Shown here: positions 2,593-38,704 of the stretch, piece after piece
How the letters are laid out: each line of letters opens with the position of its first letter
Position numbering within the stretch: position 1 is the first letter of the stretch
Source: Minisyncoccota bacterium
Lineage (GTDB): Bacteria; Patescibacteriota; Minisyncoccia; Phycocordibacterales; DATEUR01
Assembly: GCA_035583565.1 (NCBI GenBank)
Contig: DATEUR010000005.1
Coordinates: forward strand, 1-47,887
DNA: 47,887 bases
Reading direction: 5' to 3'
Translations under genes and position numbers: made by a program
Notes under the pieces: generated by a model
What the model was told of the DNA's origin: nothing
Databases searched by the model: none
What the model saw: only the letters and a program-made list of their open reading frames with translations

Positions 2593-5500
2593 TTACTTTT
2601 CTTTAGTTTTCCGTTCTCGCTCCTCCTTTTTGAGCTCAACATCGAGAGCCAGGCCGCGGAGGTAATTTAGCATGACGCTAAATGATGCCGGCGCGCCCGG
2701 GGTTTTAAGCGGTTCGTTTTTAATAATCGAATCAAATGCCTGCGTCCGGCCAGTGATATCATCAGATTTAATCGTCAGCATCTCGCGAAGAGTATGAGCG
2801 GCGCCGTACCCTTCAAGCGCCCAGACTTCCATCTCGCCGAAACGCTGGCCTCCGCCTTGAGCTTTTCCGGAAAGCGGCTGTTGAGTGATCAAACTGTAAG
2901 GACCAATCGAGCGGGCGTGAATTTTATCTTCAACCATGTGGTGGAGTTTCAAAATATACATGTAACCAACCGCGATGCTCTGGGCGAAGATCTGCCCCGA
3001 ACGGCCATCGACCAGCGTAAGACGGCCATCTTTTGGTATGCCGGCTTTTTCAAGTTCGGCTTTAATTTCTTCAGTGGTCGCGCCCATAAACTGCGGCACA
3101 ATCGCTTGATAGCCGAGTTTTTTAGCCGCGAAACCGAGGTGCATTTCAAGAATTTGGCCGAGATTCATGCGACTTGGCACGCCAAGTGGCGTCAGCACGA
3201 TATCAATCGGCGTGCCATCGGCCAAAAACGGCATATCTTCAACCGGCAAAATTGTGGAAATGACCCCTTTGTTGCCGTGACGGCCGGAAAGTTTGTCACC
3301 AACCGAAATATTTCTGATTTGCGCCACTTCCACCACAATCTTTTTCAAAATGCCGGATTCAAGATTGTGACCGGCCTCGCGGGAGAATATTTTAATGCCA
3401 ACCACCCGGCCGCGTTTGCCGTGTTCCATCCGAAGAGAAGAATCTTTCACATCGCGGGCCTTTTCCGCAAAGATGGCGCGGAGCAGTCTTTCTTCCGGCG
3501 TTAGCTCGGTTTCGCCTTTAGGGGTTATTTTTCCGACTAAAATATCGTTTTCACTAACCTCCGCGCCGATGCGAACAACTCCCTCTTCATCAAGATTTTT
3601 AAGTTTGGCTTCACCGACATTTGGAATATCGCGAGTTGTTATTTCCGGGCCGAGTTTGGTTTCCCTGACTGTCGCCACAAACTCATCAATATGGATGCTA
3701 GTGAATCGGCTGTTTTCCACTAAGCGCTCGGAAATCACGATCGCGTCTTCGTAATTGGAGCCGTTCCAGGACATAAACGCCACCAAAATATTTTGACCTA
3801 AAGCTATTTGGCCGTTATCGGTTGAGGAAGCATCGGCCAAAATATCGCCTTTCTTCACTTTATCGCCGATATTAACGATCGGCCGCTGATGGAAAATACT
3901 CGGGCTGTTGTTTCTCGTAAAGGTGATGAGATCGTAAGTGGTATCGCCGTTTTTATCAGCTACCATAATCTTTTTGGCATCAACATACTTCACGGTCCCG
4001 CTGTCGCGAGCGACAATAAGGCGGCCGGAATAGCGAGCGGCCGATTCTTCAATACCGGTGGCGACAAGCGGCGCTTCAGGAAGCACGCAAGGGGTGGCTT
4101 GTTTCTGCATGTTCGATCCCATGAGCGCGCGATTAGCGTCGTCATGTTCAAGAAATGGAATCATTGAAGTCGCGATGGAAAAAGCTTGATTAGGCGCCAC
4201 GTCAATAAAATGAACGTCCTCTTTTTTGACCGTGCCGGGATGGCCGCCGACACGAGCTTCAACAAAATCGCCAGTGATTGTGTTTTTTTCATTATAAGGC
4301 GTGCCGGCGTGAGCAATGTTGTATTTTTCTTCTTCGAGCGCGTCAAGATAAATGATTTCACCGGTGAGCTTTCCTTTCTCCACTTTTATATAAGGCGTCT
4401 CGATAATGCCGAGATGATTAATCCGGGCGTAGACAGCAAGGTGTAAAATCAAACCGATGTTCTGACCTTCCGGCGTTTGAATCGGACAGACCCGGCCATA
4501 GTGCGAAGGATGCACGTCGCGCACTTCAAAACCAGCGCGCTCGCGCGAAAGACCACCCGGACCTAAGGCCGAAAGTTGACGCAAGTGCTCGATTTCATAA
4601 AGAACATTGTCCTGCGACATGAATTGCGATAATTGGTTGACGGTAAAAAATTCCGCGATCCGCGCCTGCAGAGGCCGTTGGTTGATAACATTAATCGGGA
4701 GCGTCGTGTTGATGTCGATGGTCGACATTCGGTCTTGAATATTTCGTTTGATTTGAGTCATACCGACCCGAATTCTCTGCTCGAGAAGCTCGCCGACATA
4801 GCGGGCACGGCGCTGGCCCAAATGGTCAATATCATCGGGGCCAATTTCCGGGTTTTTATTCAATTTAAAGATATTTTCGAGAATGGTAACAATATCGTCC
4901 GCAGTTAAGGTTCTTTTGGCCACTTCTTTGTTATCAAGACTCTTATTAAAGCGGCGATTAAAACGAAAGCGGCCAACCGAAGAAAGATCGTAACGCTCGG
5001 CGCTAAACAAGGCGTCCAAAAATTCCTTAGCGTGATCCGGCGGCGCCACTTCGCCGTCACGAAGACGCTTGTGAATTTCGACGTGCGCTTCGGCGACTGT
5101 TTGTTTTTCGTCGTGCGCGAGAACCTGTTTAATGTCCTCGCGATATTCTTTCGCGAAAGCGGAAATGATTTGATCATTTTTAGTTAGCCCCAGCACACGG
5201 AGAAGCGCGATTACGCCAAAACGGCGTTTCTTATCAATTTTGACGTAAACATTACCATCCGGATCGGATTGCATTTCAATCCAAACGCCGCGCGCCGGAA
5301 TAATCTTGGCGCCAAATAATGTTTTCCCTTTAATGTCTTCAGCCGTGAAAAAGGCGCCATAGCTTCGCGCCAGCTGCGGCACAATGACTCGCTCGACACC
5401 GTTGATGACAAAAGTGCCGTGATCGGTCATTAAAGGAAGATTAGTCAAAAAGATTTCTTGTTCCCGAGTGGTGTTTAAAGTTTTATTGTGAAGACGGGTC

Positions 5501-5889: not shown

Positions 5890-5918
5890 ATTATATAAAA
5901 ATACCACCCCCTTGTCAA
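5890..5918 (-). promoter_or_regulatory. Consensus sigma70-type promoter for rpoB-rpoC
   Basis: The minus strand reads TTGACA (5918-5913), a 17-nt spacer, then TATAAT (5895-5890). It lies ~125 nt upstream of the rpoB ATG. Confidence 0.65.
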
Positions 5919-5977
5919 GAACAAGCTGGGGATTCCAGGACAAGGCCTAATCTCTAAATAAACTATTTTGTAAATCG

Positions 5978-6062
5978 CCGAAAACATCTTTTCAGAAAGC
6001 CCGGATATTTGCTTGCTAGCAAATTCCTCCTGCTCGGCCCGTCGGCCTCCGCAAGTCTTTCC
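5978..6062 (-). ncRNA. Unclassified structured RNA motif, copy A (69-nt three-way junction plus 3' hairpin)
   Basis: Begins immediately after the trmD TGA. P1 GGAAAG/CUUUCU; P2 CUUGC/GCAGG enclosing P3 GGCC-GACG-GGCC; P4 AUUUGCU-AGCA-AGCAAAU; P5 CUGAAAA-GAUG-UUUUCGG. Aligns position-for-position with copy B (37671..37754), with compensatory changes in every helix. Confidence 0.55.
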
Positions 6063-6704
6063 TCAAAGACGTTTTCGGCTCTTTCTCCTCCATTCTTCAA
6101 TATTTCCATGGTGGCCGGTTAAAAGGACTTTGGGCGTCCGATATGTCTTTTTTCCCCATTTGAGGATTTCCGGCCGGGTATAAACTTCGGCCGAAGCAGT
6201 TCTCTTCTCCTCGATTGATTCTAATTTATGAAGCACGCCCGGTACCCGCCGCGCCACCGCGTCAACAAGAGCCATGGCCGGCACTTCCCCGCCCGAGAGA
6301 ACATAGTTGCCGATTGAAACTTCTTCAGCCTTTAAAATTTTTTTGACCCGCGCGTCAATCCCCTCATAACGACCACAGATAAGAATAATGTCTTTATGTT
6401 TTTTTTGGTAGATATCGGCAATTTTATTTGTAAACATTTTACCCCGTGGCGAAAAAACAATTATTTTTGGTTTTTTGGTTTTAATGCTTTTAACAGCTTT
6501 TAAAATCGGTTCGGCCTTCATCACCATTCCCGGGCCACCGCCATAAGGCCGCTCGTCAGTTGTCTTGTGGCGACCCTGCGCAAAGTCGCGAAGATTAATT
6601 ACTTTGACTTTGATGATTCCCTTTTTTATTGCTTGCGCCAAAACGCCGTGAGCCAAAAACCCCTCAAACATTTTCGGAAAAATAGTGATAATATGAAAAG
6701 TCAT
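6063..6704 (-). CDS. trmD: tRNA (guanine37-N1)-methyltransferase
   Basis: 213 aa. MTFHIITIFPKMFEGFL..., RPYGGGPGMVMK and CGRYEGIDARV are typical TrmD motifs. Confidence 0.93.
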   Translation of the reverse strand: MTFHIITIFPKMFEGFLAHGVLAQAIKKGIIKVKVINLRDFAQGRHKTTDERPYGGGPGMVMKAEPILKAVKSIKTKKPKIIVFSPRGKMFTNKIADIYQKKHKDIILICGRYEGIDARVKKILKAEEVSIGNYVLSGGEVPAMALVDAVARRVPGVLHKLESIEEKRTASAEVYTRPEILKWGKKTYRTPKVLLTGHHGNIEEWRRKSRKRL

Positions 6705-10908: not shown

Positions 10909-12558
10909 TCACTGTTTGTAAAGAATAATGCTCTTCTTTGAAAACAAAGGTTTAAAATCAGTTAGAAAGGAATAAGAATAAGGATCGATATCTTTTATAT
11001 CCTGAAAATAAACAATATATTTGAAATCGGCTGGATCAGGGATAGGATCCAAGGATGGCAATTCCCCAAGCTCAATATTTTTGCTTGAAACGGCCTTGGG
11101 GCCAAAGAATACGCGACCTGGATTGCCTGTTATGAGATTATCGTTAAAACCAAGAGAAAAATAACCATGCCAAGGCAAAATAAGAATTTTGAAATCTTCT
11201 TTATCTTTTTCAATTATTTCTTTTGCTTCCTGCCATTCTTTTGGGTACCAGACGGATCGGAGCTGGCCCTGAAAGCCAAAAAGCATGGGGTAGGTGTAGA
11301 TCAAAGGTAAAGCAAAAACAACTGCCAGAATGTATTCTTTTTTAATTTTTTTTACTCTCTCCAAAATAAAATCAACCCCCAAAGGAATCAAATAAGCATA
11401 AATAAGAGCGATGGGGGCGACCCATTTGGCGCTATCTCGAAATCCTCGCCAAAAAGAAATATTTTCAAAAATCCAAAGATTGATAGATGAAAAAAAATCA
11501 CTCAAGCCAGTGGCAAAAACAAGGCTTAAACCGGCAAAACAAAATAAAATGAATCCCTGCCAACTGGAAAATGCCCCAAAAACAATAAGGACTAAAATTA
11601 AGAAAAGAAAAAACAGAAAAAATAATTTATTTTTCGGCCAAACAAAATTTTCCGCCCACGGCTCATCTTCGCCCCAATAACCGTATAAACTGAAAACATT
11701 GGTAAAAACTTTTAGTTTAGAATCACCGGCGGTTTGAAAAGTCTGCCAGTGAGCTTGATTAAAATTTTCAAAAACCGCTTGAGAGTTTTTGCTGACTAAG
11801 TAAGGTATTGTCCAATAACTGGAAAGAAAAAAGAAAACTAGGCCGGCTATAAAAGTTCTTAAAAGAATTTTTTTGAACAAAGACAAATTTTTTTGAAAAA
11901 GGACAACCACAATGCGACCAAACAAATAAATCGAGCTCAAAACGATCGCGATAGTAAGCATATGTAAAGAGAAAATACCAATGATGGTAAGGCAAAAAAC
12001 GAGTTTCAAAGGGATCAGGTACCTTTTTCGCGAGCCCTCAAGCCCAAGCCTCGCGAAAAAGGTACCTGATCCTTTTAACCCCTGGGGAAAGGTACCTGAC
12101 CCCTTAATTAAAAAATAAAGCACCGGCGGTAAAAGCGCATAACCGAAAAGAAAGAGCCAATGACCGGCCAAAAAACGCTCGTAAACAAATGGATTGATCG
12201 CGTAAAAGAGCGAGGTTAGATAATCCATTCCCCATTTTCTTTCAAAAAGGAAAAATTTAAACGGCAGATAAAAAAGCAAGAAAAACAAGGAAAAGAGGAT
12301 GGCTTTTTGAATAAGCCAAATCGGCAGAAAAATATCGGCAAACAAAAGAAGTTTCTCGAGGGGCAAGGCGTTTAAAAATTCTCCAGCGCTTTTGACAAAA
12401 TCAAATTCCGGCCCAAAAACCATATCTAAAGAAAACACATAGCCCGGTAAAAGCATTTGCCACAAAATAATAACTGCCCCAGCAACGGCAAAAATTATTC
12501 CGGAGTTCATGTTTTTTATATAATTAGATATTTTTTGAAGCATTTGATTTAAAGACAA
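10909..12558 (-). CDS. Large polytopic membrane protein, possible GT-C-type glycosyltransferase
   Basis: 549 aa with more than 10 predicted TM segments. Acidic first loop (SLDMVFGPEFDF) and a C-terminal soluble domain. The start is uncertain (alternative Met codons at 12543 and 12510). Function is inferred from context only. Confidence 0.5.
   Translation of the reverse strand: MSLNQMLQKISNYIKNMNSGIIFAVAGAVIILWQMLLPGYVFSLDMVFGPEFDFVKSAGEFLNALPLEKLLLFADIFLPIWLIQKAILFSLFFLLFYLPFKFFLFERKWGMDYLTSLFYAINPFVYERFLAGHWLFLFGYALLPPVLYFLIKGSGTFPQGLKGSGTFFARLGLEGSRKRYLIPLKLVFCLTIIGIFSLHMLTIAIVLSSIYLFGRIVVVLFQKNLSLFKKILLRTFIAGLVFFFLSSYWTIPYLVSKNSQAVFENFNQAHWQTFQTAGDSKLKVFTNVFSLYGYWGEDEPWAENFVWPKNKLFFLFFLFLILVLIVFGAFSSWQGFILFCFAGLSLVFATGLSDFFSSINLWIFENISFWRGFRDSAKWVAPIALIYAYLIPLGVDFILERVKKIKKEYILAVVFALPLIYTYPMLFGFQGQLRSVWYPKEWQEAKEIIEKDKEDFKILILPWHGYFSLGFNDNLITGNPGRVFFGPKAVSSKNIELGELPSLDPIPDPADFKYIVYFQDIKDIDPYSYSFLTDFKPLFSKKSIILYKQ
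12008..12105 (-). repeat. GC-rich palindromic insert lying in frame inside the CDS
   Basis: Perfect 23-bp inverted repeat ggatcaggtacctttttcgcgag (12012-12034) / ctcgcgaaaaaggtacctgatcc (12050-12072) with a 15-nt loop. A third partial arm gaaaggtacctgacccctt lies at 12087-12105. Encodes ...KGSGTFPQGLKGSGTFFARLGLEGSRKRYLIP... Confidence 0.8.
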
Positions 12559-19106: not shown

Positions 19107-20915
19107 TTATATTGGTTTGGAAAATAAAAAATTGTAAGCATAAATGAAAATGGTCAGAAAACTGACAGTTGGATGCCAAAGCCAGTCAAAAGTCTTGTCA
19201 TGAATACTTTTGTAAACGGCTTCAATGGTCGGACTGATGAAGGTTCCGAGGTAAATGATGCTTAAAACTATTTTAAATTTATTAACCTTGCGAACCCACA
19301 CGTAGTCTGTTCCCCTTATTCTGTTCTTAATTTTAAGGGCAATTTTCTTTCTTTTTCTTAGAAATTCGAATAAATTTTTGCAATAATAATGTCTTACCGA
19401 GACATCGTCCGGTATGGCATAGCCGGCACCAGTTTTCTCGTGCACAAAAGTGCCAAAATTCGCTTCTTCAAATTTTTCTTCCCATCCATTTAAGCTCATT
19501 ACCATTTTTTTATTCCATAAGAAGCCGTTCGCACCAGTTATAAGCACGGCATCTTTTTTAAAATTCAAAATCTTATACCCATCTTTTTTAATTATTACCG
19601 GCCTTGATGCCAGCATTTTGGCAAGCGGATCAGCTATACGCATTCTCGCAAAATATCTATTTAAACTTGATAATTTATCATCAGCGGCAAAAGAACTTTC
19701 CACGCCGAAAATATCAGGACTGGATAAAATGGGGGGGATCATTTTTTGGAGCCAATCCCGCTCAACGATTTCATTGTCCGCATCGATTAAAATAAAAAAT
19801 TCTCCTCTAGATTCTTTTATGCCGATAGTCTTGCCGTATTCCGTGACTCTCCTTTCGTTCGATAATATTTTCGCCTTATACTTCCGGGCAATTTGCAAGG
19901 TCTCATCATTTGAACCGCCGTCGATAACAATAATTTCAACTTTATCTTTCGGATAGTCTTGCTTGTTAATTGACTTTAAACACAACTCAACATGTTTTCC
20001 GGCATTATAAGTCGGCAAAATAAAAGTTATTTCCGGAAAATATGGCAGTCCTGTTCCTGCTTGCTTGTTCGATCCACTGATGTTTCTCGAATCAAATAAG
20101 ATTCCCTGAAGATAGCCGAGCCCCCCGCAAAAAAATTCACAGGCTTTCATAAAAAGCATACCGGCACCAATCACCGGATCTCTAAAAAGAATCTTCGGCT
20201 TTCTAAAAACCAGTTTATACCTTTCAAAAAGACTCGCTTGCCTCCTGAAATTTTCCTTATTAGCCAGAATTGATTTGTATTTACTGAGACGCCTGGCATA
20301 ATAGAATTTCTTTTTGCATGTTTTAAAAAGATTTATATGGTCTTCATTGTGATAAATAAATTCTGCAATTCTATCAATTGAGCTTTCGCCGTATTTCTCT
20401 TTTATTCTTTGAGATAAATCAAAATCTTCCGTACCGGTATTTTCTTCATCGTAGCCACTCATTTCCAAAAACACATCCCTTTTGAAAAATCTCGCTCCTT
20501 CCATCCAAGAAACGCCTACATAATAACTTCTTTCCAGCTTTTTGCATTTCGCCCAAAAGCCTTCGCCGAAAGATTCCTCCGGCACAATCACCGCTTTTAT
20601 TTTGCCATCTTTCATTTTGTTAACGCAGGCGGAAATGACCAAGGGGGATAATTTCATATCGCTGTCTACTATAAAAACATGGTCCCCTTTGGAATTTTTA
20701 ACACCAAAATTTCTTTGAGCGCTTCGCTCCGGGCCGTAATCAAAGACTTTATCTGTGTAATTAAAGGCAATTTCTTTTGTGCCATCCGAACTTTTATTAT
20801 CAACTACAATAATTTCTATGTCTTTGTAATCTTGACTTTTGACGGACGCCAGACAAGCCGCTAATGTTCTGGCTGAATTTTTAGTCGGTATTATTATAGA
20901 AACTAAAGAGTTCAT
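19107..20915 (-). CDS. Bifunctional protein with two GT2 glycosyltransferase domains
   Basis: 602 aa. First domain VSIIIPTKNSARTL...IIVVDNKSSDGT...IVDSDM; second domain ITFILPTYNAGKHV...IIVIDGGSNDET...LIDADN. Confidence 0.85.
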   Translation of the reverse strand: MNSLVSIIIPTKNSARTLAACLASVKSQDYKDIEIIVVDNKSSDGTKEIAFNYTDKVFDYGPERSAQRNFGVKNSKGDHVFIVDSDMKLSPLVISACVNKMKDGKIKAVIVPEESFGEGFWAKCKKLERSYYVGVSWMEGARFFKRDVFLEMSGYDEENTGTEDFDLSQRIKEKYGESSIDRIAEFIYHNEDHINLFKTCKKKFYYARRLSKYKSILANKENFRRQASLFERYKLVFRKPKILFRDPVIGAGMLFMKACEFFCGGLGYLQGILFDSRNISGSNKQAGTGLPYFPEITFILPTYNAGKHVELCLKSINKQDYPKDKVEIIVIDGGSNDETLQIARKYKAKILSNERRVTEYGKTIGIKESRGEFFILIDADNEIVERDWLQKMIPPILSSPDIFGVESSFAADDKLSSLNRYFARMRIADPLAKMLASRPVIIKKDGYKILNFKKDAVLITGANGFLWNKKMVMSLNGWEEKFEEANFGTFVHEKTGAGYAIPDDVSVRHYYCKNLFEFLRKRKKIALKIKNRIRGTDYVWVRKVNKFKIVLSIIYLGTFISPTIEAVYKSIHDKTFDWLWHPTVSFLTIFIYAYNFLFSKPI

Positions 20916-21655
20916 GTAGATTTAAGGGGACAAGCATCATTTCTCTTAAGAAACGGTGCTTGTCCCCTTTTAATACCCTTTATCTGGATATAATGGCTGT
21001 GCCGCGGGTCAAACTTGCCAAAACAAGCCGGCAAGGGATAATAGCCCGCGCCGCGGATCTCGACTTTGGTGAATCCATGCGCTTCAAAAAATTCTTTCAG
21101 CCCGCGCCAATTAAAAACCGTCTTGTGAGTCCAGGACGGCGAGGCGCCGGGATCGCCGCGATGCAGGGCAAAAGGGTTGCCAAGGCCGGCTTTCTTGACG
21201 CTTAAATTAGAAAGAGAAAATATTTGCCAGCCGAAAAGGCTGGCAAAGATGTTGTGCCAGCTTGACGCATTTTCCGTTCCCATAACAACATAGCCGCCGG
21301 GACGCAAAACGCGAATCACTTCCGATAAAAAATTATCCAGAAAAGCAATATGTTCAATTATTTGATTGGCGTGAATGACATCGAATGAATTATCTTCAAA
21401 AGGAAAATTAGCATTTAAATCGGATATTTTTACTTTAATTCCTTTATCTTCCGCTTCCTTGGCGCTAGATTCCACTATCTCTATTCCGTAGATATTATTT
21501 GTTTTGATTTTATTGACTACCTTTACTGTCCACGTTCCGTCATCGCACCCCAAGTCAAGAATGTCGGCGTTCGGATCAACAACCAGCATATTTAAAATAT
21601 TTTGGTCGTTCAAAGCTCTGGCTTTGTTATGCATTTTTATAAAAAAATTTTTCAT
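20912..21655 (-). CDS. Class I SAM-dependent methyltransferase
   Basis: 247 aa with ILDLGCDDGTW and VIHANQIIEHI...LRPGGYVVMGTEN. ATGA overlaps at both ends. Confidence 0.85.
   Translation of the reverse strand: MKNFFIKMHNKARALNDQNILNMLVVDPNADILDLGCDDGTWTVKVVNKIKTNNIYGIEIVESSAKEAEDKGIKVKISDLNANFPFEDNSFDVIHANQIIEHIAFLDNFLSEVIRVLRPGGYVVMGTENASSWHNIFASLFGWQIFSLSNLSVKKAGLGNPFALHRGDPGASPSWTHKTVFNWRGLKEFFEAHGFTKVEIRGAGYYPLPACFGKFDPRHSHYIQIKGIKRGQAPFLKRNDACPLKST
20924..20969 (-). repeat. 13-bp perfect hairpin within the last 20 codons of the methyltransferase gene
   Basis: aaggggacaagca (20924-20936) / tgcttgtcccctt (20957-20969). Encodes ...KRGQAPFLKRNDACPLKST, immediately before the ATGA junction with the next gene. 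Confidence 0.7.
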
Positions 21656-24965: not shown

Positions 24966-25000
24966 AATTTAATAAAGCCTCTTTTACAAAGCCTTATCAA

Positions 25001-25067
25001 TCGCCTGAACGGGGCCGACACGTGATTACGTTATTGGTTTTTGCGTCCCCCGGCCCCGTTTAGACGA
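25001..25067 (-). promoter_or_regulatory. Long leader hairpin upstream of the flippase/glycosylation operon
   Basis: 17-bp stem, 25067-25051 with 25017-25001, having one A-C mismatch and one G-U that pairs only on the minus strand. The loop is 33 nt. Lies ~35 nt upstream of the wzx ATG. Confidence 0.45.
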
Positions 25068-25150
25068 CTGATAAAAAAGGAGACTCAAAAAAGAGAATCA
25101 AAAAAAACGCCCCCCCTCGTAATCGTGGTTGAGACGCAAAAGTTACTTTA

Positions 25151-31261: not shown

Positions 31262-31326
31262 AAACCTTAATAATAAGGTTTAGAAAACATAACTGAAACT
31301 TTAATTAAAAGATTTAGTTATGTTTT
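31262..31326 (-). terminator. Two tandem AT-rich hairpins between the small membrane gene and the DUF1573 gene
   Basis: 11-bp perfect inverted repeat aaaacataact/agttatgtttt (31284-31294 / 31316-31326) overlapping the stop codon. An 8-bp hairpin aaacctta-ataa-taaggttt (31262-31281) is followed by a U-rich tract. Confidence 0.4.
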
Positions 31327-36950: not shown

Positions 36951-37643
36951 TTATCGCCAATGATTGAGTTCGATCGCCCGAAGAGCCGCCGCCGTTTCCG
37001 CTTCTTGTTTGGATCGGCCCTGCCCTTCGGCGACAAGCGTCTCGCCAAAATAAATCCCGGAGATGAAAATTTTGTTGTGATCAGGTCCTGATTCCCGAAG
37101 CACTTTGTAAGCCGGTGTGACCCCGAAATGCTCTTGTGCCATTTCCTGGACAAAACTCTTTGGATCGCGCCAGAGGCCTTTGGTCACCACATCATCGAGG
37201 CGCGGCAAAACAAACTCTGTGACAAATTTTTCGGCCACCGTATAACCACTATCAAGGTGAATGGCGCCAATGAGCGATTCAACCGTATTAGCCAGAATAT
37301 ATTGCCGCGCTTTGCCGATATCTTTGGTCTCACCGCGGGAAAGAAGCAAAAATTCACTAAAGCCGAGTTCTTTGCCAACTTCCGAAAGCACGATGGCGTT
37401 GACAACGCCGGCCCGATAAGCCGTCAATTCACCCTCTTGTTTATCAGGGTATTTTTTATATAAAAAATCGGTGACGATAAGCTCGAGGACGGCGTCTCCT
37501 AAAAACTCAAGCCGTTCATTATGAGCCAGTCGAAAACCGGGATTTTCATTAAGATAAGACCGGTGAACAAAGGCCTGAAGCAGGAGGTCTTTGTTTTTGA
37601 AGCTAATGCCAATTTTTGACTCTAATTTTTTTAAATCCGCCAT
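36951..37643 (-). CDS. rnc: Ribonuclease III
   Basis: MADLKKLESKIGISFKNKDLLLQAFVHRSY...NERLEFLGDAVLELIV (RNase III signature) plus a C-terminal dsRBD (...GRSKQEAETAAA). The start is set at ATG 37643; the track's GTG 37694 lies inside the RNA motif. Confidence 0.92.
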   Translation of the reverse strand: MADLKKLESKIGISFKNKDLLLQAFVHRSYLNENPGFRLAHNERLEFLGDAVLELIVTDFLYKKYPDKQEGELTAYRAGVVNAIVLSEVGKELGFSEFLLLSRGETKDIGKARQYILANTVESLIGAIHLDSGYTVAEKFVTEFVLPRLDDVVTKGLWRDPKSFVQEMAQEHFGVTPAYKVLRESGPDHNKIFISGIYFGETLVAEGQGRSKQEAETAAALRAIELNHWR

Positions 37644-37670
37644 TTTTTTTAGAATTACGGAAATAATAGC

Positions 37671-37754
37671 GGCAAAACACGTTTCGCCGGGCACGAATAT
37701 TTGCCTACTGGCAAATTTCTCCCGCTCAGGCCGTCGCCCTCCGCGAGTCCCGGC
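37671..37754 (-). ncRNA. Unclassified structured RNA motif, copy B (69-nt three-way junction plus 3' hairpin)
   Basis: P1 GCCGGG/CCCGGC; P2 CUCGC/GCGGG enclosing P3 GGGC-GACG-GCCU; P4 AUUUGCC-AGUA-GGCAAAU; P5 GGCGAAA-CGUG-UUUUGCC. Lies 28 nt upstream of the rnc ATG. Covaries with copy A at 5978..6062. Confidence 0.55.
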
Positions 37755-37801
37755 TCAACATATTTTGCCGCTTTATGTAGAAACATATTTTCGTAATTAA
37801 T

Positions 37802-38704
37802 TTAACCGGTAATAATTTTTATACCTTTCATGATAATCGGCAAAATGTCGTCATAAATTTTAAGATCAGCAATCTCGTCGAAGGTAAACCATCTCGCGTT
37901 ATCAAGACCTCCGCTTGAGGCCAATTTTAATTCAGCAAGAGGTGTTTCCGCTAAGAAATACATTACCCGTTTGCGAATTTTTCCTTTTTCCGGATGATTA
38001 GCCACGTATTCGTTTTCTCCGAGTTTTTCCCGGATCATAATCTCAAGGCCGAGTTCTTTCTTGATCTCGCGCGCGGTGCAGGCTTCTTCGGTCGGACAAT
38101 CGGAAGTTTCCTCAATGCCGCCTTTAGAGAGCGTCCAGTAGCCGAAGATGTCGTGGACAAGCGCCAATTTTATTTCCTTGCCGTTCCTCGCAAAAATCAC
38201 CGCGCCGCCAAGCTTCTCCACCGGCAATTTGGAGAAATCAACCGGCTCTTTCTTTTTGCTCATTTGTTCTTTGCCCGGTTCGCCGATTTCCCGGTAAACA
38301 GCGCCGAGAACGCCGTTTATGAATTTGCCGCTGTTTTCACCACCAAAATTTTTAGCCAGCTCAATCGCTTCATTAATCGCCACTTTCGGCGGGACCTGGG
38401 TCCGATCGCCAAACAATAGCTCCGCCAACCCTAAACGAAGAACATTCCGATCAACAGCCGAGATTTTTTCAAGCGGCCATTCCGGCGCCGCTTTAGTGAT
38501 AATTTGATCAATAACTTCTTTATTTTTGATGACAAGACCAATAAGGTCGCGGATGAATTTGGAGCTTTCTTCTTCAAGGCCCGGCGCGAATTCTTTTTCA
38601 TTGCGGGCAATTATTGGTTCAATATCGCTTTGTTTAAGCGCGCGGAAATCCCACTCGAAGAGGGTTTGCAGCACAATTGACCTTGCAAGATGACGAGTTG
38701 CCAT
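37802..38704 (-). CDS. nusB: NusB antitermination factor fused to a C-terminal Nudix-like domain
   Basis: Residues 1-~140 are NusB-like (MATRHLARSIVLQTLFEWDF..., DRNVLRLGLAELLF, INEAIELAK). Residues ~165-300 are Nudix-like (GGAVIF...WTLSKGGIEE...AREIKKELGLEI), with a degenerate Nudix box. Confidence 0.75.
   Translation of the reverse strand: MATRHLARSIVLQTLFEWDFRALKQSDIEPIIARNEKEFAPGLEEESSKFIRDLIGLVIKNKEVIDQIITKAAPEWPLEKISAVDRNVLRLGLAELLFGDRTQVPPKVAINEAIELAKNFGGENSGKFINGVLGAVYREIGEPGKEQMSKKKEPVDFSKLPVEKLGGAVIFARNGKEIKLALVHDIFGYWTLSKGGIEETSDCPTEEACTAREIKKELGLEIMIREKLGENEYVANHPEKGKIRKRVMYFLAETPLAELKLASSGGLDNARWFTFDEIADLKIYDDILPIIMKGIKIITG

What the first reader, a model, noticed from the sequence alone, without database searches (positions are those of the whole stretch)
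37671..37754. Unclassified structured RNA motif (copy B) between nusB::nudix and rnc, supported by compensatory substitutions
Read on the minus strand, 37754->37686 folds into a 69-nt three-way junction.
- P1 is GCCGGG/CCCGGC.
- P2 is CUCGC/GCGGG, enclosing hairpin P3 GGGC-GACG-GCCU.
- P4 is AUUUGCC-AGUA-GGCAAAU.
- A 7-bp hairpin P5, GGCGAAA-CGUG-UUUUGCC (37688-37671), overlaps the 3' strand of P1 by a few nt, so it could compete with P1.

A second copy at 6062->5994 has exactly the same 69-nt core length. By hand count 49/69 positions are identical, and 16 of the 20 differences lie in helices, all of them preserving pairing:
- P1 has four double substitutions plus one G-U to G-C change.
- P2 changes U-A to C-G.
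- P3 changes C-G to G-C and G-C to G-U.
- P4 changes U-A to C-G.

That pattern is what a functional RNA fold produces, not a recently copied repeat or a coding region. It does not match any riboswitch, ribozyme, tRNA, SRP RNA or leader consensus that I can recall.
Basis: seen in the sequence. Interest (0 to 1): 0.82.

Follow-up and report, generated by a model that had tools for sequence, protein, structure and literature searches.

The report
Capped intergenic RNA hairpin of CPR bacteria
The reported fold is real and belongs to an undescribed family of about 105-nucleotide RNA hairpins, each a long stem topped by a conserved three-way junction, found in spacers between housekeeping genes of a few CPR (Patescibacteria) bacteria, on either strand and with unknown function.

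Summary
**Observation confirmed.** Copy B (37754→37686, minus strand) and copy A (6062→5994) share 49 of 69 bases. All 10 helix pairs that differ still pair, and 8 of them changed on both sides.

**Anatomy correction.** The real elements are 37668-37772 and 5977-6079. Each folds the same way (z about -8).

**Family.**
- A covariance model plus pattern scans recovered 38 distinct copies.
- Ten species-representative genomes carry it (Saccharibacteria, Magasanikbacteria, Yanofskybacteria and unclassified Patescibacteria), plus groundwater and sediment metagenomes. None lies outside CPR or in viral contigs.
- 95% of cells are paired, 38 of 41 pairs covary, and Rfam 15 has no match.

**Context.**
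- Copies abut gene stop codons between unrelated housekeeping genes.
- Between co-directional genes, 15 are sense and 10 antisense.
- They are gained, lost, duplicated and flipped in place.
- This rules out a riboswitch, a leader or a classical terminator.

**Best reading (about 0.4).** A locus-independent structured RNA module. It is carried on a duplex long enough for RNase III (median 25 bp) and transcribed by read-through of the flanking operons. The cap is a recognition site for an unknown partner.

**Main rival.** A selfish palindromic repeat of the ERIC, RPE or Correia type.

Function is untested.

The parts
37668..37772 (-). Copy B, whole element: basal stem, P1 and the three-way-junction cap (105 nt).
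   Evidence: MFE fold (z = -8.1). CM R1 scores it 140.1 bits and CM R2 114.3 bits.
37757..37772 (-). Copy B, P0 5' strand (AGCGGCAAAAUAUGUU).
   Evidence: Pairs with 37683-37668 in the fold. All 16 P0 pairs covary across the family.
37668..37683 (-). Copy B, P0 3' strand (AACGUGUUUUGCCGCU).
   Evidence: inverted repeat I6. The consensus scan calls P5 plus its U-rich tail terminator-like, but the family does not conserve it.
37749..37754 (-). Copy B, P1 5' strand (GCCGGG). It pairs with 37691-37686. Tandem GA/GA mismatches flank it at 37756-37755 and 37685-37684.
   Evidence: Five of the 6 P1 pairs covary; the closing G-C is invariant (35 of 35).
37721..37747 (-). Copy B, P2-P3 arm: CUCGC-GGA-GGGC-GACG-GCCU-GA-GCGGG. 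It carries the invariant GCGGAG, CGACGG and CGAGC blocks.
   Evidence: Consensus line; pair counts.
37695..37719 (-). Copy B, P4 arm: 3 + 7 bp with a bulged A and an AGUA loop.
   Evidence: The P4 helices are 98-99.6% paired and fully variable in sequence.
5977..6079 (-). Copy A, whole element (103 nt). Three further pairs, 6084-6082 with 5974-5972, can extend it.
   Evidence: MFE fold (z = -7.7). CM R1 scores it 134.6 bits.
5994..6062 (-). Copy A, 69-nt core (P1-P4), position for position with copy B.
   Evidence: 49 of 69 identical; all 10 changed pairs remain standard pairs.
6063..6065 (-). The trmD stop codon UGA. Its G and A are the tandem-GA mismatch below P1 of copy A. The last five trmD codons lie in the P0 5' strand.
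   Evidence: ORF 6063..6704; fold.

Best explanation
**What it is.** A locus-independent structured RNA module.
- A conserved cap of about 70 nt forms a three-way junction. It consists of P1, a P2-P3 arm with a G-bulge, tandem G-A pairs and a C-GACG-G loop, and a P4 hairpin.
- The cap sits on a long, sequence-variable duplex.
- The element lies in the short spacers that follow stop codons in CPR operons.
- No dedicated promoter was found. By inference it is transcribed by read-through of the flanking genes.

**How it probably works (inferred).**
- The duplex below the junction has a median of 25 bp. By analogy, that is what a double-strand-specific RNase (RNase III, which the window encodes) needs to process or punctuate the transcript. 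It could also block 3' exonucleases.
- The roughly 20 invariant unpaired nucleotides of the cap are a recognition surface for a trans-acting partner, either a protein or an RNA.
- The function does not depend on which genes are adjacent.

**How copies behave.** They are duplicated to new spacers as core + P1 + inner stem. They are lost, and they are flipped in place.

**Shown versus inferred.**
- Shown: the structure, selection on it, the distribution, the independence from context, and the flips.
- Inferred: transcription, RNase III cleavage and the existence of a partner.
For: **Structure under selection.**

**RNA-level folding on the motif strand.** In copies that share a strand with the upstream gene, G-U outnumbers A-C 50:3, and 23:2 in the basal stem.

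**Duplex length.** 16-39 bp below the junction, median 25. RNase III is encoded 24 nt downstream of copy B.

**No gene association.** Neighbours include trmD/rpoB, nusB/rnc, glyA/folD, ftsA/ftsZ, gatB/dnaJ, rpoC/dnaG, ruvB and groEL.

**Not a terminator or leader.**
- No U-tract follows the stem.
- In about half of the sense copies the next start codon is only 17-40 nt away, so transcription must continue through the element.

**Gain, loss and inversion at the nusB-rnc junction.**
- Sense in the window.
- Antisense and cap-degenerate in L083, whose NusB-Nudix protein is 87% identical.
- Replaced by a different plain hairpin in L081.
- No spacer at all in L080 and L082.

**In-place inversion.** In L024 versus L042 the core has 0 differences, while the flanks are 80% identical.

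**Paralogues are alike.** Median core identity is 78% within genomes and 59% between them. One core is 99% identical at unrelated loci that have unrelated outer arms.
Against: - No expression data exist.
- Between co-directional genes, 10 of 25 copies are antisense. No sigma-70-like promoter precedes them on the motif strand. Many intact copies may therefore never be made as motif-strand RNA.
- The family is rare. Exact-pattern copies occur in only 10 of 185,579 species-representative genomes. Close relatives of the window organism lack it across 14-21 kb of syntenic DNA. That fits an accessory or selfish element better than a housekeeping RNA.
- No partner protein was identified.
- RNase III cleavage is an inference from stem length alone.
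Confidence: 0.4

Rival explanations
1. A selfish, non-autonomous palindromic repeat, the CPR counterpart of ERIC/IRU, Rickettsia palindromic elements or Correia elements. In this reading it spreads into safe intergenic sites such as the apices of pre-existing hairpins. The fold is maintained only because the intermediate that is copied or moved (ssDNA or RNA) must fold. The host merely tolerates it.
For: - Orientation relative to host genes is close to random (15 sense, 10 antisense, 6 convergent).
- Presence, absence or inversion differs at the same junction in relatives.
- Distribution is patchy across three labelled CPR groups (Saccharibacteria, Magasanikbacteria, Yanofskybacteria), with 2-4 copies in carriers.
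- Paralogues resemble each other more than copies in other genomes. One core is 99% identical on unrelated outer arms.
- Plain long hairpins occupy equivalent spacers.
Against: - There are no conserved terminal inverted repeats; every basal-stem column varies.
- No target-site duplication was seen.
- Copy number is low, and 494 kb around known copies holds no further ones.
- No transposase was seen nearby, and there are no viral-contig hits.
- Resident copies keep the core intact (0-1 change in about 70 nt) while flanks diverge by 20%. Paralogues differ by compensatory pairs. Both indicate long-term purifying selection after insertion.
Confidence: 0.25
2. A purely cis-acting mRNA element. The long hairpin at gene 3' ends serves as an RNase III processing site, a 3'-exonuclease barrier or a U-tract-less terminator. 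Copy B would act as an rnc autoregulatory stem, as in the E. coli rnc leader. The cap would be incidental or merely a folding nucleus.
For: - In both orientations the element abuts a stop codon, with gaps of about -19 to +60 nt.
- Three of five relatives keep some long hairpin in the nusB-rnc spacer, whatever the cap.
- Antisense copies carry relatively more A-C, which is G-U on the mRNA strand: GU:AC in the basal stem is 7:4, against 23:2 in sense copies.
- L083 keeps all helices although the invariant cap nucleotides have decayed.
Against: - About 20 unpaired cap nucleotides are invariant across 38 copies from distant CPR lineages. A hairpin role alone does not explain that.
- The element is dispensable at each junction examined.
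- Most copies have no U-tract.
Confidence: 0.15
3. A new class of small self-cleaving (or otherwise catalytic) RNA.
For: The following resemble how bacterial hammerhead and twister ribozymes are distributed (my own knowledge):
- a compact multi-helix junction with many invariant unpaired nucleotides;
- patchy distribution;
- several copies within 1.4-4 kb of each other;
- no gene association.
Against: - There is no similarity to any Rfam ribozyme model.
- No pseudoknot signal was found.
- A 25-bp closing stem is atypical.
- Nothing in the sequence identifies a cleavage site.
Confidence: 0.07
4. A DNA-level element: a folded ssDNA or cruciform that serves as a recombination, replication or uptake site, read independently of transcription.
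For: - Orientation is independent of the flanking genes, and elements flip in place.
- No dedicated promoter was found.
Against: - G-U exceeds A-C strongly on one strand, and most strongly when that strand is the mRNA strand.
- Copy number is low.
- Orientation does not track that of rpoB/rpoC (loci L021, L032 and L038), so it does not track replication direction either.
- The stems carry no conserved sequence that a DNA-binding protein could read.
Confidence: 0.07
5. A riboswitch or attenuator controlling the downstream gene, with the reader's P5 acting as a terminator that competes with P1.
For: In copy B, P5 plus CUAUUAUUUC scores as terminator-like. P5 overlaps the P1 3' strand.
Against: - P5 is absent from the other members.
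- The 16-bp P0 out-competes it in the MFE fold and the centroid.
- Downstream genes are unrelated, and 10 of 25 copies are antisense.
- A 22-39-bp closing duplex is too stable to switch.
Confidence: 0.03

Closest known systems
ERIC/IRU repeats of enterobacteria, Rickettsia palindromic elements (RPE) and Neisseria Correia elements (from my own knowledge, not tested by a tool)
   Same: - They are imperfect palindromes of about 100-150 nt in intergenic or intercistronic DNA, in either orientation.
- They are co-transcribed with flanking genes and fold into long RNA hairpins.
- Correia hairpins are cut by RNase III.
- They are present or absent at orthologous sites.
   Different: - Those elements have conserved sequence along the arms or terminal inverted repeats, and tens to hundreds of copies.
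- They show no evidence of compensatory evolution.
- Here the arms are free in sequence and only the apical three-way junction is conserved.
- Copy number is about 2-4.
- Covariation is pervasive.
RNase III processing hairpins (phage T7 early-mRNA R sites, rRNA processing stalks, the E. coli rnc leader) (own knowledge)
   Same: - A duplex of at least 20 bp, with small internal loops, lies between cistrons.
- One copy sits 24 nt upstream of rnc itself.
   Different: - Those sites have simple loops or enclose a whole rRNA.
- They are fixed in orientation and locus.
- Cleavage here is untested.
REP/BIME elements (own knowledge)
   Same: Hairpins at gene 3' ends in both orientations, with effects on mRNA stability.
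   Different: REPs are palindromes of about 35 nt with a conserved stem sequence (GTAG head). They are mobilised by RAYT transposases and occur in hundreds of copies. They have no multi-helix cap.
Integron attC sites (own knowledge)
   Same: A strand-specific folded structure immediately downstream of genes, recognised by shape.
   Different: attC conserves the outer R''/R' boxes and varies in the centre. This family does the opposite. Its flanking genes are core housekeeping genes, not cassettes.
Orphan structured RNA motifs of Rfam (for example the drum, skipping-rope and DUF3800 motifs; PMC5737381)
   Same: Highly conserved, covarying small RNAs of unknown function that were found by comparative genomics.
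   Different: There is no sequence or structure match. Those motifs are described in that paper with 3' terminators or a specific associated protein. This one has neither.

Membership tests
Any Rfam 15 family (4227 models, including riboswitches, ribozymes, SRP, 6S, Y-RNA-like and leaders) | A covariance-model score at or above the family's gathering threshold. | tested here: not met
   - The window has 0 hits.
- At E<=10 on both copies only noise appears, none covering the core.
- At E<=5 on five other members nothing overlaps the motif.
tRNA / tmRNA | A cloverleaf or tmRNA architecture detectable by ARAGORN. | tested here: not met
   0 genes in the window.
Riboswitch / cis-regulatory leader | Lies upstream of, and on the same strand as, a coherent set of regulated genes. 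| tested here: not met
   Neighbours are unrelated. Between co-directional genes 15 copies are sense and 10 antisense.
Riboswitch / cis-regulatory leader | A conserved expression platform: an alternative terminator or sequestration of the ribosome-binding site. | tested here: not met
Elsewhere P0 continues straight from P1.
Riboswitch / cis-regulatory leader | Specific ligand binding. | not testable with these tools
   Needs in-line probing or ITC.
Intrinsic (Rho-independent) terminator | A G+C-rich hairpin followed directly by a U-tract. | tested here: not met
   - The 3' flanks show no consistent U-run.
- Many downstream start codons lie 17-40 nt away.
- Only copy B's P5 scores in the consensus scan.
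MITE-type repeats (Correia, ERIC, RPE) | Dispersed intergenic imperfect palindromes in either orientation. | tested here: met
MITE-type repeats (Correia, ERIC, RPE) | Conserved terminal inverted repeats, or conserved arm sequence. | tested here: not met
   All 16 basal-stem pairs vary on both sides, and the consensus has no conserved arm column.
MITE-type repeats (Correia, ERIC, RPE) | Target-site duplication. | tested here: inconclusive
   None was evident by inspection of the flanks. No closely related filled/empty pair was available to define the ends.
MITE-type repeats (Correia, ERIC, RPE) | Tens to hundreds of copies per genome. | tested here: not met
   At most 3 exact-pattern copies per species-representative genome. 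The improved model finds no extra copies in 494 kb.
RNase III substrate | A near-continuous duplex of about two helical turns (at least 20 bp). | tested here: met
   P0 + P1 + extension has a median of 25 bp and a range of 16-39. P0 is 93.7% paired.
RNase III substrate | Cleavage by the cognate enzyme. | not testable with these tools
   rnc is present in the window, but no assay is possible.
Known self-cleaving ribozyme classes | A match to the class consensus (hammerhead, twister, twister-sister, pistol, hatchet, HDV-like, hairpin). | tested here: not met
   No Rfam hit. No covariation support for a pseudoknot.
Integron attC | Conserved R''/R' boxes at the ends, with a variable central structure. 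| tested here: not met
   The pattern is the opposite: variable ends and a conserved centre.
Inverton (phase-variable invertible segment) | Both orientations co-exist within a population, and the segment carries a promoter. | tested here: not met
   - All 18 contigs of the window organism, from many samples, have the same orientation.
- No promoter-like site was found.
- Inversion is seen only between species.

The most novel reading that the evidence does not exclude
The cap is a previously unknown functional small RNA of CPR bacteria, either a ribonucleoprotein scaffold or a new ribozyme class.
- It has no gene of its own. It lives in the apex of intergenic hairpins and is expressed by operon read-through.
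- RNase III releases it.
- It is switched on or off over evolutionary time when recombination between the hairpin arms flips it.
Probability: 0.2. Interest if true: 0.85.

Novelty: new variant of a known kind. Interest (0 to 1): 0.62.

Why it matters
- CPR/Patescibacteria make up a large share of bacterial diversity, yet almost nothing is known about their non-coding RNAs.
- This is a cleanly covarying, multi-helix RNA family restricted to CPR genomes in the collections scanned. Rfam lacks it, and four full-text literature searches found no description of it.
- Its behaviour is unusual. The apical domain is conserved, the stem is free to vary, copies sit in either orientation, and they flip in place. 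That combination blurs the line between a functional RNA and a selfish palindromic repeat.
- If the cap binds a conserved factor or is catalytic, it would give a handle on RNA processing in organisms that cannot be cultured alone.
- If it is selfish, it would be an unusual kind of element, maintained by RNA-like structural selection without terminal repeats.

Tried and rejected
- **Rfam.** Searched at gathering and at permissive E-values on seven members. Nothing was found.
- **tRNA/tmRNA.** None.
- **Extra copies in the window.** Only plain palindromes turned up, at 12001-12079 and 20916-20973.
- **Viral contigs.** Two patterns gave 0 hits.
- **Improved model R2.** No new or degenerate copies in 494 kb.
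- **Pseudoknot or tertiary covariation.** No signal beyond the helices. A possible pairing of GGAG with the P4 loop (CUUC/CUCC) fits only a subset of loops and was dropped.
- **Terminator hypothesis.** No U-tract.
- **Own-promoter hypothesis for antisense copies.** The best sigma-70 matches, 6-9 of 12, are at background level.
- **High-frequency flipping (inverton).** Rejected for the window organism, where 18 of 18 contigs share one orientation. Contigs that end inside the motif are best explained by assembler breaks at a palindrome.
- **K-turn reading of the GGA/GA loop.** The required 3-nt bulge is missing. The loop is better read as tandem G-A pairs plus a bulged G.
- **SRP domain IV, L1 or S15 operator mimicry.** Considered from memory. 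There is no model hit and the copy-number logic is wrong.
- **Literature.** Four full-text searches found no description. The 224-motif paper has no equivalent.
- **Outer-arm comparison, L024 versus L042.** It weakly favours breakpoints inside the arms, but is too short to be conclusive.

Full report
**1. The observation**

- On the minus strand, 37754-37686 reads GCCGGGACUCGCGGAGGGCGACGGCCUGAGCGGGAGAAAUUUGCCAGUAGGCAAAUAUUCGUGCCCGGC.
- The second copy, at 6062-5994, has the same length.
- A direct recount gives 49 of 69 identical positions. Of the 20 differences, 18 fall in helices, on 10 base pairs. All 10 remain standard pairs: 8 are double substitutions and 2 are changes between G-C and G-U.

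**2. The element is larger than reported**

- Folding 121 nt around each copy gives the same shape for both. From base to tip it has a 15-16-bp basal stem (P0), a tandem G-A/A-G mismatch, then P1 and the junction.
- Free energies are -63.0 and -56.1 kcal/mol, with z = -8.1 and -7.7. None of 200 shuffles folds as well.
It appears in neither the MFE fold nor the centroid.
- True extents are 37668-37772 (copy B) and 5977-6079 (copy A).
- In copy A the last five trmD codons and the UGA stop lie inside the 5' arm.
- The RNase III gene downstream of copy B is called with a GTG start inside the motif. Relatives have 230-231-aa proteins, so the real start is ATG 37643, 24 nt after the stem.

**3. Not a known family**

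- Rfam 15 gives no hit at gathering threshold in the window.
- At E<=10 on the two copies, and E<=5 on five other members, nothing overlaps the motif.
- ARAGORN finds no tRNA or tmRNA.
- Four full-text literature searches and the 224-motif paper gave no description.

**4. Family and covariation**

- A covariance model (R1) built from the two copies finds only those two in the window.
- I scanned 185,579 species-representative genomes with a pattern of the conserved unpaired bases, GACNNGCGGANNNNGACGNNNNGAGCNNGAG. It gave 23 loci.
  - The 17 loci in CPR/Patescibacteria MAGs (10 genomes: Magasanikbacteria, Saccharibacteria, Yanofskybacteria and unclassified Patescibacteria) all match the model at 38.6-86 bits.
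  - The 6 loci in high-GC non-CPR genomes do not match, as expected for chance hits.
- The metagenome scan added 37 loci. The model matched 33 of them at E<=0.01, and many of these repeat the lineages found in the genome scan.
- Viral contigs gave none.
- On the 38 distinct sequences:
  - 95.3% of cells are paired;
  - 38 of 41 pairs change on both sides;
  - the covariation score is 0.819, against 0.199 for shuffles (0 of 500 reach it) and at most 0.167 for slid controls.
- The 30 top mutual-information pairs are exactly the modelled helices. No pseudoknot signal appears.
- The invariant part is G-ACU-nGC-GGAG-nnCGACGGnn-CGA-GCn-nGA-G...[P4]...A..GUG-C. The basal stem and P4 are free in sequence.
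- The window organism is labelled Candidatus Paceibacterota.

**5. Context**

With crude ORF calls around the 38 distinct copies:

| Flanking genes | Copies |
|---|---|
| Co-directional, motif sense | 15 |
| Co-directional, motif antisense | 10 |
| Convergent | 6 |
| Divergent | 1 |
| One flank not callable | 6 |

- In both orientations the element abuts a stop codon, with gaps of about -19 to +60 nt.
- Neighbouring genes are unrelated housekeeping genes: trmD/rpoB, nusB-nudix/rnc, glyA/folD, ybeY/ftsA, ftsA/ftsZ, gatB/dnaJ, rpoC/dnaG, ruvB, groEL and nrd.
- No U-tract follows the stem.
- About half of the sense copies lie 17-40 nt from the next start codon. The element is therefore usually intercistronic, not a terminator.
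- Copy A is instead followed by a perfect TTGACA-17-TATAAT promoter for rpoB.
- No sigma-70-like promoter precedes antisense copies on the motif strand.

**6. Dynamics**

- Two related genomes carry the element at the same two junctions but inverted. Flanks are 80% identical and colinear. The element is 89-94% identical in the opposite orientation, with 0-1 differences in the roughly 70-nt core.
- The nusB-rnc junction differs among relatives:

| Locus | Identity of NusB-Nudix to the window protein | What lies at the junction |
|---|---|---|
| Window | – | Sense copy |
| L083 | 87% | Antisense copy; helices intact, invariant cap bases decayed |
| L081 | 68% | A different AT-rich plain hairpin |
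| L080 | 81% | Genes overlap; no spacer |
| L082 | 67% | 13-nt spacer; no element |

- The window organism shows a single orientation in 18 contigs from many samples. Flipping is therefore evolutionary and not a fast switch.
- Paralogues within a genome resemble each other more than copies in other genomes. Median core identity is 78% against 59%.
- One core is 99% identical at two unrelated loci whose outer arms are unrelated. The duplicated unit there is about core + P1 + 8 bp of inner stem (with inspection).
- Second copies often lie 1.4-4 kb away. Even so, the improved model R2 finds nothing more in 494 kb.

**7. Which strand folds**

- On the motif strand, G-U outnumbers A-C by 50:3 in copies that share a strand with the upstream gene, and by 23:2 in the basal stem.
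- In antisense copies the ratio is 19:5, and 7:4 in the basal stem.
- This is the signature of RNA-level selection on the mRNA strand for the stem.
- The cap keeps its strand-specific identity in either orientation.

**8. Interpretation**

- The data exclude a riboswitch or leader, a classical terminator, a classical MITE (no conserved arms, low copy number) and membership of any Rfam family.
- What remains is a locus-independent structured module on a duplex long enough for RNase III (median 25 bp).
- I rate a read-through-expressed, RNase III-processed RNA whose cap is a recognition surface for an unknown partner as most likely (0.4).
- The rivals:

| Rival | Confidence |
|---|---|
| Purely selfish palindromic repeat (ERIC, RPE or Correia type) | 0.25 |
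| Hairpin-only mRNA processing or stability element | 0.15 |
| New ribozyme | 0.07 |
| DNA-level element | 0.07 |

- Transcription, cleavage and the partner are inferences. None could be tested here.

**9. Verdict**

- The finding is real and its core interpretation is right. Its anatomy and context needed correction.
- The family is undescribed and biologically odd, but it is rare and of unknown function.
- Interest is 0.62.

Noticed in passing
window 36951-37694 (-): RNase III is called as 247 aa from a GTG at 37694, which lies inside the motif's P1 3' strand. Orthologues are 230-231 aa, so the true start is ATG 37643 (MADLKK...), 24 nt after the basal stem.
   Followed up: partly
window 5890-5918 (-): A perfect sigma-70 consensus promoter (TTGACA, 17 nt, TATAAT; 12 of 12) lies between copy A and rpoB. 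rpoB therefore has its own promoter, and copy A lies at the 3' end of the KH-protein-trmD gene cluster.
   Followed up: partly
window 37802-38704 (-): A NusB-Nudix fusion protein (300 aa, PF01029 + PF00293). The fusion is very common in Paceibacterota: 8000 hits at E<=1e-20, and all 120 listed carry both domains.
   Followed up: no
window 12008-12105: A 27-nt-arm, 96% complementary hairpin (12008-12034 / 12050-12076), with a third copy of the arm at 12088-12105. It appears to lie inside a 549-aa ORF (10909-12558). It could be a switchable alternative pairing or a mis-called ORF.
   Followed up: no
window 24994-25074, 20924-20969, 31284-31326: Further long plain hairpins. Those at 24994-25074 and 31284-31326 lie in spacers between co-directional genes. 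The one at 20924-20969 lies inside the 3' end of the ORF 20912-21655, next to the junction with the following gene. Long hairpins seem to be the usual content of spacers in this genome, and the motif looks like a capped version of them.
   Followed up: partly
L081 10925-11015: The nusB-rnc spacer of a 68%-identical relative holds a different, AT-rich plain hairpin of about 35 bp instead of the motif.
   Followed up: no
L017 and L018 (ends at 4020 and 4016): Two contigs of the same organism stop inside the motif, at model positions 94-98 of 121. This is probably an assembler break at the inverted repeat.
   Followed up: partly
window 37782-37791 and 37757-37766 (-): The 10-nt sequence AAAATATGTT occurs twice, once just upstream of copy B and once in its 5' arm. 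It may be a remnant of a duplication or an alternative partner for the 3' arm.
   Followed up: no
L041 780-898 (-) and 2221-2337 (+): In a Magasanikbacteria genome, two copies in inverted orientation bracket glyA. The second copy has a rearranged P2-P3 region.
   Followed up: no
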